Shown piece after piece: positions 6,050 to 10,102 of a stretch of 64,000 bases of DNA (the first letter of the stretch is position 1; each line of letters opens with the position of its first letter). Location: contig CAXXKT010000001.1 in the NCBI GenBank assembly GCA_963662405.2, positions 2,560,001 to 2,624,000 of the forward strand. Direction: 5' to 3'. The notes under the pieces are model-generated. The model was not told the origin of the DNA. It worked only from the letters and a program-made list of their open reading frames with translations, and searched no databases. Source of the DNA: Syntrophales bacterium (GTDB lineage: Bacteria; Desulfobacterota; Syntrophia; Syntrophales; UBA2210). The position numbers and the translations under genes are program-made.

Positions 6050-7969
6050 ATGAACGGGCGCTTTCGCATAGGATGGCTGATGTTCTGTGCCACCGTTGTC
6101 TTCATGAATCCGGGCATTACCCTGATGCCCCATGGCGGTGTTTCTCACGCTGCGGGGAACCCCCCGCCGATTATTACACCGATACAACAGCCCGAGGTCA
6201 AACAATCGGCACCGGGCAGTTCCCAGCCGGTGGTCGTTCCCTCCCGTGAGGGACCGTTCTATGCCGTGCAGGCGGCCGCCTGCCGCCGGGAAGAAAACGC
6301 CCGGATCATCATGCAAAAACTGGAGGGGAGGGGATACGAACCGATCCTCTATTCGTGGGCGGACTCGGCGGGAGACGCGTGGCACTCGGTGTTTCTCGGC
6401 CTCTGTGACACTGCCGCCGAGGCTGAGACCGTTGCGCGGCGATACCGCGAAGCGGAGGGAACGGCCGGCTTTATCAAGGTGCTCGACCGGTATGTCCCGG
6501 TGGTGGCTGCGGCACCCGTGACCCACCTCCCCGAACCGCCGTCCCGTCAACCTCAAGTGACGGCTGATCCGAGGCAGGGAAAGACGGCACCGGCCGCCCG
6601 CGATCCGAAAGCCGTTGAGACGGCGGAAGAAGAAAACACCGGCCCGGAGTTTTCCTGTAGCGGTTTTGTCGAGCTCGAGAGTTTCGTCAACACGGGAAAG
6701 GCGGGGAGTGCCAAGGTCAAGAACAAAAAGAACGAGATCCGAAACCGTCTCCGGATACGGTATGGAACCGAGAGCCTCTATCTCTATTCCGTCTCGAACC
6801 TCTATCTTTTCCAGACCTATATGAATGGTGATGCGAACGATCGCTACCGCTATGCAAAGAGACAGGAGGTGTCACGGAACCTGAGGCTTTCCGAGGAAGA
6901 GAGCGAGCTGTCCTTTGATGAACTCTACCTCAACTACGGCGGAAAACATTTCAGACTGCGCGCGGGGAATCAGATATACGCCTGGGGGACGGCAGATGCC
7001 TTCAACCCGACGGCATACTTCAACCCGTCCGACATGCGGGAGATGCTCTTTCGGGACGACGATGAAGAGAAGGCGGGGGTCCCCTCCCTTTCCGGGATGT
7101 TTTTCTTGGGCGACTGGACCCTGGAGACCGTTCTCGTCCCCGTGCATGTCCCCCCGATTATGCCGGTGGAAGGGGACTTCTGGTCCCTCGCGATTGACAA
7201 TACGCTCCTGCCGGTCGTCTTCGATGAACCGGACACCCTCAGTTTCGGTGCCGACCATGTCGGGTACGGCGCCCGGCTCTCGACCAGTTTTGGGAGTGTC
7301 GATATGTCAGTGAGCGGATACTACGGACCGGACAGGAACCTCCTCTTTATCCCTTATGAGGTCACCTTTGACGGCTTTACCCCCGTCTGTCTCCGGATCA
7401 GGCCGCAGTCCTTTATGGTGACGATGTTCGGATTCGACCTCTCGGCGGTCCTGGGCGATGTCGTTGTCCAGGTTGAGGCGGTCTATTCGCCCGACAAGGT
7501 GGGGGTCGTCGAGCAGCGGACCACCAATCTCATGAGCGTGACCCTCCCCTTCGAGACGGACCGGGCGCATTATGTCTCCTACTCCGTCGGATTCAACTAT
7601 TTTATCCCCCTCGATACTCTGATAGAGGGACACACGGGGGATACAGTCTTCACCGCCGAGTGGTACACGGCGCAGTATCTGGAAGGGGGGATCTACACCC
7701 CGTATATCACCAATATCCTGAGCTGCAAGTTCCAGGACAGTTACTTCGACGGCCGTTTTAAGACGACCGTCAAGGGGATCTTCGATACGAGACACGGGGG
7801 AAAGATCTTCTGGCCCGAGATCAGGTATGACTTCCAGAACGGATTCCTCATCGAGCTCGGCTATGCCGCCATCTGGGGGGATAGGGGCGATTCATGGGAA
7901 GACGATTCGCTCTTCTCCTATTTCGAGGATAATGATGTGGTCATGATGAAGGTTCGCTACCAGTACTGA
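6050..7969 (+). CDS. Exported protein: SPOR peptidoglycan-binding domain, Pro/Ala linker and putative outer-membrane beta-barrel (DUF1302-like)
   Basis: Signal-peptide-like N-terminus; SPOR pattern YAVQAAAC..EENA....L...GY...W.SVFLG....AEAE; barrel-like ELYLNY..LRAGNQIYAWGTADAFNPT; aromatic C-terminus KVRYQY. Confidence 0.7.
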   Translation: MNGRFRIGWLMFCATVVFMNPGITLMPHGGVSHAAGNPPPIITPIQQPEVKQSAPGSSQPVVVPSREGPFYAVQAAACRREENARIIMQKLEGRGYEPILYSWADSAGDAWHSVFLGLCDTAAEAETVARRYREAEGTAGFIKVLDRYVPVVAAAPVTHLPEPPSRQPQVTADPRQGKTAPAARDPKAVETAEEENTGPEFSCSGFVELESFVNTGKAGSAKVKNKKNEIRNRLRIRYGTESLYLYSVSNLYLFQTYMNGDANDRYRYAKRQEVSRNLRLSEEESELSFDELYLNYGGKHFRLRAGNQIYAWGTADAFNPTAYFNPSDMREMLFRDDDEEKAGVPSLSGMFFLGDWTLETVLVPVHVPPIMPVEGDFWSLAIDNTLLPVVFDEPDTLSFGADHVGYGARLSTSFGSVDMSVSGYYGPDRNLLFIPYEVTFDGFTPVCLRIRPQSFMVTMFGFDLSAVLGDVVVQVEAVYSPDKVGVVEQRTTNLMSVTLPFETDRAHYVSYSVGFNYFIPLDTLIEGHTGDTVFTAEWYTAQYLEGGIYTPYITNILSCKFQDSYFDGRFKTTVKGIFDTRHGGKIFWPEIRYDFQNGFLIELGYAAIWGDRGDSWEDDSLFSYFEDNDVVMMKVRYQY

Positions 7970-7994
7970 CCGTTTCATTCAAAAAGGAGGAATG

Positions 7995-8004
7995 ATAAAA
8001 AGTC
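7995..8004. repeat. Left sub-terminal inverted repeat of the IS
   Basis: ATAAAAAGTC is the exact reverse complement of 9362-9371; imperfect extension TTCATG/CATGAA. Confidence 0.85.
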
Positions 8005-8014
8005 TTCATGAGCT

Positions 8015-8187
8015 GTGAATTGGGATACACTGTTTGAAACTTTATAGTTTTGGGCAGCAAGGCTACTGTTCGACATGTTTACTGGTCTTCGAGACCGCAA
8101 AGGAGAATGAAGAGCTGTAGCCGCAACATTCAATGATCTTCGAGATCGAATAGGAGATTGGGACCAATTCACCTGACAGGCGCTGTC
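8015..8187 (+). ncRNA. Putative bridge RNA/seekRNA of the IS110 element
   Basis: Closing stem GTGAATTGG (8015-8023)/CCAATTCAC (8164-8172); stem GGCTAC/GTAGCC; two internal loops each capped by a TCTTCGAGA hairpin; loop arms match the target and the donor junction. Confidence 0.8.
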
Positions 8188-8208
8188 CAAGATGTGAGGA
8201 GGCGTTCT

Positions 8209-9321
8209 ATGAAGATGAGTATCGGGGTTGACCTTCACAAGACGCAGTTTACCGTTTGTTGTTTGAGTGAAGATCGGAGTGTTCAGGAGTCGGGCATCTA
8301 CCCGACGACTGATCGAGGTTACCGGGCATTTATCATGAAGGTGTCCAACTGGAATGAGGGCGGTTACGAGGTCACGGCAGCGGTGGAATCAACAGGGAAC
8401 ACCCGACACTTTCGCAACCGGTTTTTGAAGGCGGGGATTGAGGTCAAGATAGTGAACACCTTGAAATTCAAGGTTGTAAATGAGTCAGTAAAAAAGACTG
8501 ACAAGCATGATTCCCGCACATTGGCTGAGTTTCTTGAGAAAGATATGCTTCCCGAGTCCATTCTTTGTTCGCAGGAAAGCGAGGACATTCGAAGGCTTCT
8601 CAAGTCACGTTCTGTTCTGGTGAAAGCTTTGGTATCCTTGAAAAACCAGATACACGGTTTATTGCTTGGATATGGGATAGAGAGTCGGCGGGGACAGCTG
8701 CAGAGCAAAAAAGAAAGGCAGCGAATCCTTGACGGTCTCGCGGACCATAGGAGTTACGGAAACGCTGCCCGAGCGGTAAAACCGCTTCTTGGTACAATAG
8801 ACCAAATTGCATCCGAGGTCAAAGGACTTGAGCGCGTATTATCTGATCTTGTTTCTGAAGACGAGGATGTTGCTCTGTTGCAAACGATTCCTGGCGTTGG
8901 AATAATAACAGCAGCGACGATTCGGGCTTATACCGATGACATCAACCGATATGAGAGCGCCAAGCAGTATGCTGCTCATGCCGGTTTGGTACCATGGGTT
9001 CAAAACTCCAACAAGACCATTCGCCATGGTCATATTACCAAGCGAGGCCCCGTGGAACTGAGGACGGCTTTTGTGCAAATGGTAATGGGGATGCTACGGC
9101 TTCGGAATAAAACCGATGGATATTGGCTTATGTACAAATACAAAGCCATGAAAGAGAACAAGGGAACCGGGAAGAGCGTAATAGCGACGGCGCGAAAGAT
9201 GAGCACTATTGTATATGCCATCTTGAAGAAGGGGGAGCCGTTTGATCCATCGAAAATGCTGCCAGACCCGAAATATGTAGAGATGAGTAAGGTTGCGAGG
9301 TGTTATGCTTTGGCCGTTTAA
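8209..9321 (+). CDS. IS110-family DEDD recombinase/transposase (370 aa)
   Basis: GVDLHK (D), VESTG (E), KTDKHD (D,D); LQTIPGVG; AGLVPWVQNSN (catalytic Ser region); GHITKRG; GAGGAGG RBS before ATG 8209. Confidence 0.95.
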   Translation: MKMSIGVDLHKTQFTVCCLSEDRSVQESGIYPTTDRGYRAFIMKVSNWNEGGYEVTAAVESTGNTRHFRNRFLKAGIEVKIVNTLKFKVVNESVKKTDKHDSRTLAEFLEKDMLPESILCSQESEDIRRLLKSRSVLVKALVSLKNQIHGLLLGYGIESRRGQLQSKKERQRILDGLADHRSYGNAARAVKPLLGTIDQIASEVKGLERVLSDLVSEDEDVALLQTIPGVGIITAATIRAYTDDINRYESAKQYAAHAGLVPWVQNSNKTIRHGHITKRGPVELRTAFVQMVMGMLRLRNKTDGYWLMYKYKAMKENKGTGKSVIATARKMSTIVYAILKKGEPFDPSKMLPDPKYVEMSKVARCYALAV

Positions 9322-9329
9322 ATTTTAAC

Positions 9330-9357
9330 CATGGGCCTGTTTGACAGGCTCTCCATG
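9330..9357 (+). other. Hairpin in the IS right end, just after the transposase stop
   Basis: CATGG-GCCTGT-ttg-ACAGGC-tct-CCATG. Confidence 0.55.
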
Positions 9358-9361
9358 AATT

Positions 9362-9371
9362 GACTTTTTAT
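9362..9371. repeat. Right sub-terminal inverted repeat of the IS
   Basis: GACTTTTTAT, complementary to 7995-8004; overlaps the TTGACT -35-like box. Confidence 0.85.
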
Positions 9372-9382
9372 AGGAGGAAGAC

Positions 9383-10102
9383 ATGAAGGAGCAAAATCGG
9401 AGCGCCCTGATACTGGGTGTCTGTATCTTTCTGGGACTGGCCTTTCTCGGGTTTTTCCTGGGGCAGAGCGCCCTGAAGGTTAAGGCGTATGAACGGACCG
9501 TGACCGTGAAGGGGCTCTCGGAGCGGGAGTTCCCGGCCGATATCGTCCTCTGGCCGATCCACTTTTCCACGTCGGACAACGATCTCACGGACCTGTACGC
9601 GGCCATCGAACGGGATTCGCAGGAGATTATCGGATTCCTGAGGAAGAGTGGATTCGAAGGGGGGGAGATCACGGTGTCTTCCCCCGGGATTACCGACAAA
9701 TTGTCCCAGGGATACGAAAAATCGAAGATCGAGTTCCGCTATACCGCCGCCCGGACCATCACGGTCTATTCCACCAAGATCGAAGCGGTGCGCTCCGCAA
9801 TCAACGGGCTGGTCGAACTGGGGAAGAAAGGGATCGCCTTTACCGACAACACCTATCAGGGCCTGCCCGCGACGGAGTACCTCTTCACCCGCCTGAACGC
9901 GGTCAAACCGGGCATGATCGAGGAGGCCACGATGAAGGCGCGGGAGGTGGCGATCAAATTTGCGCAGGACTCCGGCAGCAGGGTGGGGAAGATCAAACGG
10001 GCGAGGCAGGGACAGTTCTCGATCTCAGACCGGGATCGGAATAATCCGCACATCAAAAAAATACGGGTCGTCTCGACGGTCGAATATTATCTGTCGGATT
10101 GA
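9383..10102 (+). CDS. SIMPL domain (DUF541) protein
   Basis: N-terminal TM, ERTVTVKGLSERE..AD.VLWPI, KFAQDSGSRVGKIKRARQGQFSI, KKIRVVSTVEYYL. Confidence 0.9.
   Translation: MKEQNRSALILGVCIFLGLAFLGFFLGQSALKVKAYERTVTVKGLSEREFPADIVLWPIHFSTSDNDLTDLYAAIERDSQEIIGFLRKSGFEGGEITVSSPGITDKLSQGYEKSKIEFRYTAARTITVYSTKIEAVRSAINGLVELGKKGIAFTDNTYQGLPATEYLFTRLNAVKPGMIEEATMKAREVAIKFAQDSGSRVGKIKRARQGQFSISDRDRNNPHIKKIRVVSTVEYYLSD

What the first reader, a model, noticed from the sequence alone, without database searches (positions are those of the whole stretch)
7985..9385. IS110 element inserted into a Shine-Dalgarno sequence and regenerating it
Seen: left junction cattcaaaAAGGAGGAA|tgataaaaagtc, right junction gactttttatAGGAGGAA|gacATG. 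Removing 7993-9379 restores ...TACTGAccgtttcattcaaaaAGGAGGAAgacATG, an ordinary 26-nt spacer holding the RBS of the SIMPL gene. The element's own donor junction also contains AGGAGGAA, so the downstream gene keeps its RBS at the same spacing. Known: IS110 elements recombine through a shared core without a true target duplication, and mycobacterial IS900-type elements target translation-initiation signals, so the idea has precedent. Inference: RNA-programmed targeting of an abundant intergenic motif that avoids breaking ORFs, here co-oriented with the host gene in a deltaproteobacterium-like genome.
Basis: partly seen in the sequence, partly recalled or inferred. Interest (0 to 1): 0.85.

Follow-up and report, generated by a model that had tools for sequence, protein, structure and literature searches.

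The report
Mobile element targeting ribosome-binding sites
This is a jumping gene that uses its own small guide RNA to insert itself exactly at the ribosome-binding site in front of genes while leaving a working copy of that site behind, and close relatives of it do the same in several unrelated groups of bacteria.

Summary
A 1.39-kb IS110-family element (transposase 8209-9321) sits between a Shine-Dalgarno (SD) motif and the ATG of a SIMPL gene. The genome holds 9 copies (8 identical, 1 with one change). All have the flanks (A/T)AAGGAG|GAATGATAAAAAG...GACTTTTTAT|AGGAG. In 7 of 9 an ORF of 71-239 aa starts 5-9 nt further on. The shared core is AGGAG (5 nt).

The left end encodes a structured RNA with two internal-loop modules. 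One carries AAAGGAG (target flank plus core). The other carries AUAGGAG (right end plus core) and CAUUC (complement of the left end).

Across 97 element-site pairs from genomes and metagenomes the 7-nt target guide equals the flank in 65 and differs by one base in 27 (0 of 10000 permutations reach this). Relatives with guides CACGGAG, CACAAAG, CGCGGAG or AGGGGAG sit at exactly those sequences. RNA-programmed SD targeting is therefore strongly supported.

The ends and guide order are IS1111-like, but the non-coding region lies upstream of the transposase. A possible second guide (invariant CAU) for spacer plus start codon is only partly supported. No RNA, circle or empty-site data were obtainable.

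The parts
6050..7969 (+). Upstream host gene (SPOR + DUF1302 domains). Its stop codon lies 15 nt before the SD core.
7983..7989 (+). Host Shine-Dalgarno AAAGGAG, the left half of the target. AGGAG (7985-7989) is the core copy at the left junction.
   Evidence: AAAGGAG in 8 of 9 copies, TAAGGAG in 1. It is identical to the RNA loop sequence at 8100-8106.
7990..9371 (+). Body of the insertion element (1382 bp; 1387 bp with one AGGAG).
   Evidence: 9 copies in the genome, 8 identical and 1 with a single change
7995..8004 (+). Left subterminal inverted repeat ATAAAAAGTC. TG at 7993-7994 plus TAAAAA at 7996-8001 form an extended -10-like box.
   Evidence: read from sequence. The terminus TGATAAAAAG is conserved across relatives.
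8015..8173 (+). Bridge/seek-RNA-like structured region. Long-range helix 8015-8023 with 8165-8173 encloses a 5' stem-loop, the target module (8062-8123) and the donor module (8124-8160).
   Evidence: 86.8% of cells paired against 27-46% for slid controls; 31 of 45 pairs have compensatory changes; 0 of 500 shuffles reach this
8075..8083 (+). 5' strand of the target loop, CAUGUUUAC. Candidate guide for the spacer and start codon to the right of the SD (its reverse complement ends in ATG).
   Evidence: for; weaken it. Function is inferred.
8085..8097 (+). Apex hairpin of the target module (GGUCU-UCG-AGACC).
   Evidence: helix 5, 94% paired, 4 of 5 pairs with compensatory change
8100..8106 (+). 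3' strand of the target loop, AAAGGAG. Guide identical to the top strand of the target flank plus core, so it would pair with the bottom strand CTCCTTT.
   Evidence: identical to the flank 7-mer in 65 of 97 element-site pairs, 6 of 7 bases in 27; 0 of 10000 permutations reach this
8128..8132 (+). 5' strand of the donor loop, CAUUC. Complementary to the first bases of the element (GAATG, 7990-7994).
   Evidence: 284 of 295 Watson-Crick pairs, 0 of 10000 permutations; 11 of 13 elements with a variant left end compensate
8151..8157 (+). 3' strand of the donor loop, AUAGGAG. Identical to the right end plus core (9370-9376).
   Evidence: equals the right-end 7-mer in 62 of 64 elements; the variant ATAGAAG covaries in 4 of 4
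8209..9321 (+). Transposase/recombinase gene (370 aa), preceded by its own SD GAGGAGG (8196-8202).
9360..9371 (+). Right end. TTGACT (9360-9365) is -35-like. GACTTTTTAT (9362-9371) is the right subterminal inverted repeat. In a circle junction, TTGACT, 17 nt and TAAAAA would form a promoter.
   Evidence: read from sequence. TTGACTTTTTATAGGAG is conserved in relatives. Circle and promoter activity are not shown.
9372..9376 (+). Second core copy, AGGAG. It now serves as the SD of the downstream gene.
9377..10102 (+). Host spacer GAAGAC (9377-9382) and the SIMPL/DUF541 gene (9383-10102).

Best explanation
An active IS110-family insertion element whose left end encodes a bispecific guide RNA of the bridge/seek-RNA kind. 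The target loop carries AAAGGAG, which would pair with the bottom strand of a Shine-Dalgarno sequence. The donor loop carries AUAGGAG and CAUUC, which match the joined right and left ends of the element. The DEDD/serine recombinase would exchange strands inside the AGGAG that donor and target share. The element therefore lands just after the SD, co-oriented with the gene, without a true duplication, and each junction keeps an AGGAG. The downstream gene keeps an SD at its old spacing and can be translated from transcripts that read through the element. Shown here: copy number, junctions, RNA structure covariation, and guide-flank and guide-end covariation. Inferred: RNA expression, the circular intermediate with a junction promoter, the position of cleavage, and read-through expression. 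A further proposal is that the 5' strand of the target loop (CAU + 6 nt) reads the spacer and start codon. I rate that at about 50%.
For: - **Copies and junctions.** There are 9 copies, 8 identical, all with the same junction pattern. An ORF of 71-239 aa starts 5-9 nt after AGGAG in 7 of 9.
- **Background rate.** Only 254 of 925 AAAGGAG sites in the genome precede such an ORF.
- **Other hosts.** The same pattern is seen in other hosts:
  - 15 of 15 copies in a 5.15-Mb Spirochaetia chromosome.
  - 10 of 11 right junctions in a Lentisphaeria chromosome.
  - A cultured Thiospirochaeta plasmid.
- **Target guide.** It equals the flank 7-mer in 65 of 97 pairs and matches 6 of 7 bases in 27. The observed score is 635 against 538.8 +/- 15.3 permuted, with 0 of 10000 permutations reaching it.
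- **Natural reprogramming.** Relatives with guides CGCGGAG, CACGGAG, CACAAAG and AGGGGAG sit at exactly those flanks.
- **Donor guides.** They covary with the element ends.
- **RNA structure.** It is supported by compensatory changes.
- **Protein.** It has both IS110 Pfam domains. The D, E, D..D and S positions align with ISEc21.
- **Read-through.** No terminator-like site lies between the transposase stop and the host ATG.
- **5'-strand guide.**
  - CAU is present in 78 of 78 rows that the script scored as CAU-type. L175 also has it, with a guide 1 nt longer. It is replaced in the 12 rows with other targets.
  - In this genome the 9 occupied sites pair better with this strand than 908 unoccupied AAAGGAG sites. 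Mean Watson-Crick pairs are 5.11 against 3.05, p 1.9e-5.
  - They also pair better than the 228 unoccupied sites with a nearby ATG (p 9e-4).
  - 0 of 600 composition-matched shuffled guides do as well.
Against: - **No direct data.** No RNA run holds the locus. The contigs laid show no circle junction and no empty site.
- **No empty-site allele.** The relatives examined have a different gene downstream.
- **Guide-flank mismatches.** 5 of 97 pairs match poorly; 3 of these are my parsing errors. In the Spirochaetia family the guide UUAGGAG differs at one base from the commonest flank, ATAGGAG.
- **5'-strand guide.**
  - Position-by-position covariation with the right flank is weak or absent in SD-type elements.
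  - The pooled excess of 6-nt spacers is 39 of 78, against 14-18% background. It is confounded, because in the Spirochaetia genome TAGGAG-N6-ATG is itself the commonest spacing: 69 sites against 33, 35 and 22 for N5, N7 and N8.
  - The test in this genome rests on 9 sites, which are also AT-richer than the rest.
- **Cleavage position.** It cannot be placed within AGGAG from sequence alone.
Confidence: 0.85

Rival explanations
1. The RNA reads only the 7-nt SD-like word. The association with real gene starts and the lack of intragenic copies come from selection against gene-disrupting insertions, or from easier melting of AT-rich intergenic DNA. The 5' strand of the target loop is not a guide for the spacer and start codon.
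For: - No position-specific covariation between the 5' strand and the right flank in SD-type elements.
- Spacer lengths at occupied sites mirror the local SD spacing. In this genome they run 5-9 nt, and in the Spirochaetia genome the background itself peaks at 6.
- Occupied sites are AT-richer than unoccupied ones, 0.67 against 0.51.
- 2 of 9 copies here (L004, L009), and 7 of 79 sites overall, have no ORF of 50 aa or more downstream.
Against: - The copies are identical, so they are recent and selection has had little time. Yet 0 of 9 lie inside an evident gene, while about 73% of AAAGGAG sites are not gene starts.
- The real guide order separates occupied from unoccupied sites better than 600 of 600 composition-matched shuffles.
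- CAU is replaced whenever the 3' guide is reprogrammed away from SD. In L171 the replaced strand pairs with 8 of 8 right-flank bases, counting G-U pairs.
Confidence: 0.4
2. Recognition is by the protein, or by simple identity of the AGGAG core in donor and target. The left-end RNA plays no guiding role.
For: AGGAG is present at both ends and in nearly all targets. No RNA expression data exist.
Against: - The 2-3 bases upstream of AGGAG in the flank vary (AAA, TAA, GAA, CAA, AGA, TGA). They track the loop sequence of each element.
- Elements whose loop reads CACAAAG or CGCGGAG sit at those words.
- Donor-loop bases track left-end variants GTATG, GCATG and GAGTG.
- Published work shows that IS110/IS1111 relatives require such RNAs (passages read).
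Confidence: 0.03
3. The repeated unit is not an autonomous element in this genome. It is a relic kept because it links genes into new operons or supplies regulatory RNA.
For: It is always co-oriented with the gene, preserves the SD, and has no terminator before the host gene.
Against: - 8 identical copies and 1 with one change, all with intact 370-aa ORFs.
- Near-identical copies with other flanks occur in metagenomes of another study.
- Multi-copy families occur in other phyla.
- All of this is typical of an active element.
Confidence: 0.05

Closest known systems
IS621-type bridge RNA elements (IS110 group; Durrant et al. 2024, PMC11208160; Hiraizumi et al. 2024, PMC11208158; passages read)
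   Same: - DEDD + Tnp-domain recombinase.
- A long left non-coding end upstream of the gene.
- An RNA with a 5' stem-loop followed by a target loop and then a donor loop.
- One guide in each loop equals the top strand of the left half-site plus core. [quoted passage not shown]
- A promoter split between the right and left ends.
- The last two bases of AGGAG read CT on the other strand, which is the IS621 core.
   Different: - In IS621 the guide that equals the top strand lies 5' of the loop's hairpin (LTG 50-58, RTG 77-80). Here it lies 3' of it.
- The ends carry a 10-bp subterminal inverted repeat.
- Donor and target share 5 nt, not 2.
- The target is a translation signal, not a REP-type repeat.
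- No Rfam family matches.
- Protein identity was not measured against IS621. Against ISEc21 of the same group it is 23%.
IS1111-type seekRNA elements such as ISEc11 and IS4321/IS5075 (Siddiquee et al. 2024, PMC11187229; passages read)
   Same: - Subterminal inverted repeats.
- 10 bp between the repeats in the joined ends, which fits the published extensions of 7 bp left and 3 bp right.
- The order of the top-strand and bottom-strand matches is reversed relative to the IS110 type.
- The closest named plasmid hit is IS4321, at 26.6% identity over residues 5-290.
   Different: - The non-coding region is upstream of the transposase, whereas in this type it is usually downstream. The paper says 'a few' have it upstream.
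- The protein is 370 aa, against 330-350 aa.
- The repeat is 10 bp, against the usual 11-13 bp.
- Full-length relatedness to IS1111 is not resolved.
[quoted passage not shown]
   Same: Insertion between the SD and the start codon of a gene, in one fixed orientation. The precedent is one passage of PMC2942039, which cites Doran et al. 1997 and Inglis et al. 2003. That these are the mycobacterial IS900/IS901 group of the IS110 family is recalled, not read.
   Different: - By recall, those elements are in Actinobacteria and lie with the transposase opposite to the target gene. Here it is co-oriented.
- No RNA-level explanation for that group was found in the texts I searched.
- Relatedness of the proteins was not tested.
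ISEc21 (IS110 type with upstream non-coding region; locus L189)
   Same: Upstream non-coding region. Transposase in the 345-385 aa size class. The D, E, D..D and S positions are conserved in the pairwise alignment.
   Different: Only 23% identity (32 bits). It targets a conserved codon stretch of IS3 transposases. Its guide order is the opposite one.

Membership tests
IS110 family (ISfinder sense) | N-terminal DEDD/RuvC-like domain and C-terminal Tnp domain | tested here: met
   PF01548 at residues 5-155 (E 8e-19) and PF02371 at residues 222-302 (E 3e-20), both above the curated cut-offs
IS110 family (ISfinder sense) | Catalytic D, E, D, D and serine | tested here: met
   In the BLASTP alignment with ISEc21, GVDLHK, VESTG, TDKHD and NSNKT align with GVDTHK, VECTG, SDTID and SSGKT. 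Equivalence to IS621 D11/E60/D102/D105/S241 is inferred.
IS110 family (ISfinder sense) | Site-specific insertion with no duplication beyond a core shared by donor and target | tested here: met
   9 of 9 copies have the same junctions and share only AGGAG. The same holds in three other multi-copy families.
IS110 family (ISfinder sense) | Circular intermediate that builds a promoter across the joined ends | tested here: inconclusive
   The sequence would give TTGACT, 17 nt, then TG-n-TAAAAA, and this is conserved in relatives. No circle junction was seen in the contigs laid.
Bridge/seek RNA-guided elements | Structured RNA in the long non-coding end, with covarying helices | tested here: met
   65 left ends; 86.8% of cells paired against 27-46% slid; 275 cells with double changes against 108.5 +/- 9.2 shuffled
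Bridge/seek RNA-guided elements | Loop sequences covary with target flank and with donor ends | tested here: met
   Target: (0 of 10000 permutations). Donor: (0 of 10000; ATAGAAG covaries in 4 of 4).
Bridge/seek RNA-guided elements | RNA is expressed and bound by the recombinase | not testable with these tools
   No RNA holder is listed for the locus
IS621-type bridge RNA | In each loop the left guide lies 5' of the hairpin and the right guide lies 3' of it | tested here: not met
   AAAGGAG and AUAGGAG (equal to the top strand of the left half-sites) lie 3' of the hairpins. CAUUC (complement of the right donor half) lies 5' (compared).
IS621-type bridge RNA | CT core dinucleotide | tested here: inconclusive
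   The shared AGGAG ends in AG, which is CT on the other strand. The cleavage site cannot be read from sequence.
IS1111 group | Subterminal inverted repeats (7-17 bp, usually 11-13) with short asymmetric extensions | tested here: met
   ATAAAAAGTC (7995-8004) and GACTTTTTAT (9362-9371), 10 of 10 bases. 10 bp lie between them in the joined ends.
IS1111 group | Long non-coding region downstream of the transposase | tested here: not met
   219 nt upstream (7990-8208) against 50 nt downstream (9322-9371)
IS1111 group | Transposase related over its full length to that of IS1111 | tested here: inconclusive
   IS4321: 26.6% identity over residues 5-290, 69 bits. ISEc21: 23%, 32 bits. No tree was built.
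SD-to-start-codon targeting IS (IS900-like behaviour) | Insertion between SD and start codon in a fixed orientation | tested here: met
   59 of 79 SD-type sites have an ORF of at least 50 aa, or one running at least 50 aa to the contig end, starting 3-14 nt after the core. 13 more are cut by a contig end.
SD-to-start-codon targeting IS (IS900-like behaviour) | Phylogenetic membership in the mycobacterial IS900 group | not tested
   No IS900 sequence was compared

The most novel reading that the evidence does not exclude
A clade of RNA-guided insertion elements spread across phyla whose target loop reads a whole translation-initiation region on both DNA strands. The 3' guide reads the Shine-Dalgarno word. 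The 5' guide, with an invariant CAU, reads the spacer and the start codon. The element therefore picks functional gene starts rather than any SD-like word, inserts co-oriented, hands the gene a fresh SD, and turns the gene into the distal member of its own transcription unit. Because the target is nearly universal, the same element can colonise Desulfobacterota-like, spirochaete and lentisphaeral genomes. Its loops show that the IS621 layout can be inverted while the non-coding region stays upstream.
Probability: 0.45. Interest if true: 0.75.

Novelty: new variant of a known kind. Interest (0 to 1): 0.6.

Why it matters
- **An old observation explained.** Some insertion elements have long been known to land between ribosome-binding sites and start codons. 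This case shows, with natural covariation and natural reprogramming, that such behaviour can be written in a 7-nt RNA guide.
- **A natural 'safe harbour' design.** The element targets an abundant, orientation-defining motif and rebuilds the motif behind itself. That may explain high copy numbers and spread across distant hosts.
- **Relevance to engineering.** The family offers bridge-type RNAs with an inverted loop layout, a long 7-nt 'right' guide and a possibly degenerate second guide. The reprogrammed relatives form a ready-made test set.
- **Relevance to annotation.** Genes directly downstream of these elements should not be called silenced or disrupted without checking.

Tried and rejected
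- **Empty-site allele.** The upstream gene is found in 10 of 40 relatives. In the 7 loci I read the SIMPL gene is not downstream, so no empty site could be compared.
- **Sequencing runs.**
  - No RNA holder is listed and only contigs are held.
  - No joints were seen, so there is neither a circle junction nor an empty site.
  - No support, no verdict.
- **Rfam.** No family matched in 7500-10000. The only hit was a mir-23 chance match at E 0.14.
- **Spacer length as evidence that ATG is read.**
  - Pooled, 39 of 78 sites have a 6-nt spacer, against 14-18% background.
  - I set this aside because the Spirochaetia genome's own TAGGAG-ATG spacing peaks at 6.
  - The 9 sites in this genome are spread over 5-9 nt.
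- **Position-specific covariation.** Between the 5' loop strand and the right flank there is none beyond composition. Fixed-register tests were weak and inconsistent between SD-type and reprogrammed elements.
- **Partial copies in this genome.** None were found by BLAST.
- **Lentisphaeria-type relatives (34% identity).** The flanks were read. Their RNA was not parsed: their left ends account for most of the 11 that my pattern missed.
- **Script misses.**
  - 39 of 157 loci gave no left terminus plus ORF in my script.
  - 10 of 111 rows were dropped from the flank test because the flank is cut by a contig end.
- **ISEc11 reference.** The accession is not in the collection.
- **Literature.**
  - Searches found no text linking bridge or seek RNAs to ribosome-binding sites.
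  - The only precedent found in print is one sentence in PMC2942039.
  - Supplements of PMC11187229 hold no such motif.
  - Supplements of PMC11208160 are partly cut in storage. They hold target sets that look like the reverse strand of SD-spacer-ATG, but not this element's termini.
- **Earlier findings of the scan.** Nothing.
Full report
**The observation**

The window shows the two junctions as quoted. AGGAGGAA lies at 7985-7992 followed by TGATAAAAAGTC. GACTTTTTAT is followed by AGGAGGAA at 9372-9379, then GAC and ATG at 9383. Between them lies one long ORF, 8209-9321. My first try at its coordinates was off by one base (corrected). The 370-aa product carries both Pfam domains of IS110-family transposases, and the downstream ORF 9383-10102 is a SIMPL/DUF541 protein. 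The upstream gene (SPOR + DUF1302) stops at 7969.

**Copies in the genome and the true boundaries**

The genome (3.80 Mb, 3 contigs) holds 9 full-length copies. Eight are identical and one has a single change.

- All 9 have the left junction (A/T)AAGGAG|GAATGATAAAAAG: AAAGGAG in 8 and TAAGGAG in 1.
- All 9 have the right junction GACTTTTTAT|AGGAG followed by variable sequence.
- GAA is therefore the first three bases of the element, and the sequence shared by donor and target is AGGAG.
- The 8-nt repeat in the window copy arises because the host spacer happens to start with GAA. The reconstructed empty site is the same either way.
- In 7 of 9 copies an ORF of 71-239 aa starts 5-9 nt after AGGAG. 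One copy (L004) precedes only an 11-aa ORF and one (L009) precedes none.
- For comparison, the genome has 925 AAAGGAG words on both strands. Only 254 (27%) are followed at 4-10 nt by a start codon and an ORF of at least 60 aa. By my hand calculation, 7 or more of 9 at that rate has a probability of about 0.003.

**A clade in distant hosts**

A scan of one genome per species returned 77 loci, and a metagenome scan returned 80 of 260 confirmed matches.

- Three further multi-copy families let boundaries be read directly.
  - A 5.15-Mb Spirochaetia chromosome (74% protein identity): 15 of 15 copies read ...AGGAG|GAATGATAAAAAGTC...TTGACTTTTTAT|AGGAG, with ATG 5-7 nt on.
  - A Marispirochaeta assembly (55% identity): 6 left and 6 right junctions at contig ends show the same pattern.
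  - A Lentisphaeria chromosome (34% identity): the right junction ATAGGAG is followed by ATG in 10 of 11.
- A copy on a plasmid of cultured Thiospirochaeta perfilievii (75% identity) shows AAAGGAG|GAATGATAAAAAG and TTTTATAGGAG, then 6 nt, then ATG.
- Over all SD-type sites that my scripts could parse, 59 of 79 have an ORF of at least 50 aa, or one running that far to the contig end. A further 13 are cut by a contig end and 7 have none.
- 39 of 157 loci gave no parse.

**The RNA**

The 219-nt left end is conserved in architecture.

- A long-range helix (8015-8023 with 8165-8173) encloses three parts.
  - A 5' stem-loop.
  - A first module: outer stem 8062-8067 with 8118-8123, internal loop, apex hairpin 8085-8097.
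  - A second module: apex hairpin 8136-8148.
- On an alignment of 65 distinct left ends, this structure pairs 86.8% of cells, against 27-46% when partners are slid.
- 31 of 45 pairs show compensatory changes, and no shuffle of 500 reaches the observed values.
- The structure was drawn from the window sequence, which favours it on 'cells paired'. The compensatory counts do not depend on that. RNAalifold found the two modules independently.
- Rfam has no matching family.

**Guides and what they match**

| Loop strand | Window position | Sequence | What it matches |
|---|---|---|---|
| First module, 3' strand | 8100-8106 | AAAGGAG | Left flank plus core |
| Second module, 3' strand | 8151-8157 | AUAGGAG | Right end plus core (9370-9376) |
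| Second module, 5' strand | 8128-8132 | CAUUC | Complement of the element's first bases, GAATG |

- *Target guide.*
  - Across 97 distinct element-site pairs, the first-module 7-mer equals the flank 7-mer in 65 and matches 6 of 7 bases in 27. It does worse in 5, of which 3 are cases where my script picked a wrong terminus.
  - These 97 come from 101 usable rows of 111. Ten were dropped because the flank is cut by a contig end.
  - Permuting the 60 guide sets never reaches the observed score, 635 against 538.8 +/- 15.3, in 10000 permutations.
- *Variable bases.* The bases before AGGAG take the values AAA, TAA, GAA, CAA, AGA and TGA in both guide and flank.
- *Reprogrammed relatives.* A subclade from metagenomes has guides CGCGGAG, CACGGAG, CACAAAG and AGGGGAG, and sits at exactly those words. 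One member has a single mismatch.
- *Donor guides.*
  - 284 of 295 guide-end base pairs are Watson-Crick, and 0 of 10000 permutations reach this.
  - 11 of 13 elements with left ends GTATG, GCATG or GAGTG carry a compensating or wobble-compatible guide.
  - The right-end variant ATAGAAG is matched in 4 of 4.
- This is the signature expected of a bispecific guide RNA.

**Comparison with the published systems**

For IS621 I read the following (passages):

- The left guides equal the top strand of the left half-sites and lie 5' of each loop's hairpin.
- The right guides are complementary to the top strand and lie 3'.
- The core is CT.
- The promoter is rebuilt at the joined ends.

Here the order within each loop is the reverse. 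The seekRNA paper states that IS1111-type RNAs have the reverse order of the IS110-type ISEc21. It also states that IS1111 elements have subterminal inverted repeats with 7-bp and 3-bp extensions, and that their non-coding region is usually downstream, with a few exceptions (passages).

The window element has:

- a perfect 10-bp subterminal repeat (7995-8004 and 9362-9371);
- 10 bp between the repeats in the joined ends;
- the reversed guide order;
- an upstream non-coding region.

If the DNA is read on the other strand, the end of the core becomes CT. The SD side then becomes a 7-nt 'right' half-site, and the spacer side becomes the 'left' half-site read by a 9-nt 5' guide. This re-reading is inference.

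By sequence the protein is remote from both reference types: 26.6% identity to IS4321 over residues 5-290 and 23% to ISEc21. I did not build a tree.

The joined ends would read TTGACT, 17 nt, then TG-n-TAAAAA. These are consensus matches only.

**Does the RNA also read the start codon?**

The 5' strand of the target loop is CAU plus six variable, U-rich bases (8075-8083).

*For:*

- CAU is present in all 78 rows my script scored as such. It is also present in L175, whose guide is one base longer.
- In the 12 rows with non-SD targets it is replaced by other triplets, while the rest of the RNA is kept.
- In L171 the replaced strand pairs with 8 of 8 right-flank bases, counting G-U. In L174 a 6-base run pairs one position further on.
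- In this genome the 9 occupied sites pair better with this strand, taking the best of three registers, than two comparison sets.
  - Against the 908 unoccupied AAAGGAG sites: 5.11 against 3.05 Watson-Crick pairs, p 1.9e-5.
  - Against the 228 unoccupied sites that have an ATG at 4-9 nt: p 9e-4.
- No composition-matched shuffled guide of 600 separates them as well.

*Against:*

- Position-by-position covariation with the right flank is absent in SD-type elements.
- The pooled excess of 6-nt spacers (39 of 78) is confounded. In the Spirochaetia genome TAGGAG-N6-ATG is itself the commonest form: 69 sites, against 33, 35 and 22 for N5, N7 and N8. Reversed-pattern controls gave 26, 16, 36 and 19.
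- The registers seen in reprogrammed elements are not uniform.

I rate this proposal at about even odds.

**Consequences for the host gene (inference)**

- The element is co-oriented with the gene.
- Its transposase ORF ends 61 nt before the host ATG.
- No terminator-like site lies in between.
- AGGAG stands at the native spacing.
- Transcripts that read through could therefore still give SIMPL protein.
- No expression data exist.

**What could not be shown**

- The contigs of the genome's own sample give the element 41.4 word-depth against 3.4-3.8 for the flanks.
- Those contigs show other flanks as loose ends but no joint, so there is no circle and no empty site.
- Relatives carry other genes after the upstream gene.

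**Novelty**

- That some insertion elements land between SD and start codon is in print. PMC2942039 carries a passage citing work of 1997 and 2003.
- That those are the mycobacterial IS900 group is my recollection.
- In nine literature searches I found no text that ties bridge or seek RNAs to such targets.
- The supplements of the two founding papers do not hold this element's termini. Some of those files are cut in storage.
- One supplement holds target sets that look like SD-spacer-ATG on the other strand.

I therefore file this as a new variant of a known kind. It uses a known mechanism and has a known precedent for the target. What is undescribed is the layout, the clade across phyla, and a clear natural reprogramming series.

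Noticed in passing
window ~8046-8057 with ~8180-8190 (alignment A1 columns 84-93 with 226-235): RNAalifold prefers a long-range helix between the 3' arm of the 5' stem-loop and a stretch just upstream of the transposase SD, with 19-29 compensatory sequences per pair in several columns. It excludes the local 5' stem-loop, which also covaries. This may be a conformational switch or a closing stem.
   Followed up: partly
run X4 laid on window, loose end at 8099: A marine-sediment metagenome contig follows the left end up to the base before the target guide. It then continues with TAAGGAG, a 6-nt spacer and an ATG-led sequence, as if the guide-coding DNA itself had recombined with a gene start.
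   Followed up: no
L040, about 110 nt upstream of the full copy: A roughly 31-bp miniature made of the element's first 15 bases and a right-end-like GACTTTTTAT, preceded by TTAGGAG but without AGGAG after it. It may be a scar or a MITE-like remnant.
   Followed up: no
L171 right flank: Two copies stand in tandem. Eight bases after the right end of one copy (GCACAGAG), the left end of the next copy begins.
   Followed up: no
window 7985-9376 in run X1: The element's word-depth is 41.4 against 3.4-3.8 for the flanks, about 11-12 copy equivalents against 9 assembled copies. Possible causes are copies on higher-copy replicons, unassembled copies, or circles. This was not resolved.
   Followed up: no
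runs X1 and X3, records aligned to 9336-9376: A contig carries a 41-nt right-end-like piece with a 2-nt deletion, flanked by unrelated sequence (a GGAATTCC-rich repeat before it). My BLAST did not find it in the assembled genome.
   Followed up: partly
runs X4, X5: The element occurs at over 99% identity (4 differences in 1238 nt) in marine-sediment metagenomes of another study. It is attached to other flanks there, while the host genes in those samples are only about 90% identical.
   Followed up: no
L035-L050 left flanks: In the Spirochaetia chromosome, 6 of 15 insertion sites are preceded by a repeated hairpin motif (C-Y-GCATCCATGC-R-G type) and a T-run that ends in TTTAT just before AGGAG. 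This looks like a recurrent terminator-plus-SD module. It may explain why the flank there resembles the element's own right end.
   Followed up: no
L164 and L165: Two metagenome loci share an identical 30-nt left flank and an identical element but have different right flanks, suggesting a rearrangement next to the element.
   Followed up: no
L190:1826-1952: On the Thiospirochaeta plasmid the element sits in front of a 39-codon glycine/proline-rich ORF that the record does not annotate.
   Followed up: no
L032: A 91%-identical transposase lies on a 2.7-kb contig binned as Candidatus Gracilibacteria. This is either very recent transfer between phyla or a mis-binned contig.
   Followed up: no
L001 (G000 contig 3), gene after the element: One of the nine copies sits directly in front of a flagellar basal-body rod protein gene (PF00460, E 7e-10).
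   Followed up: partly
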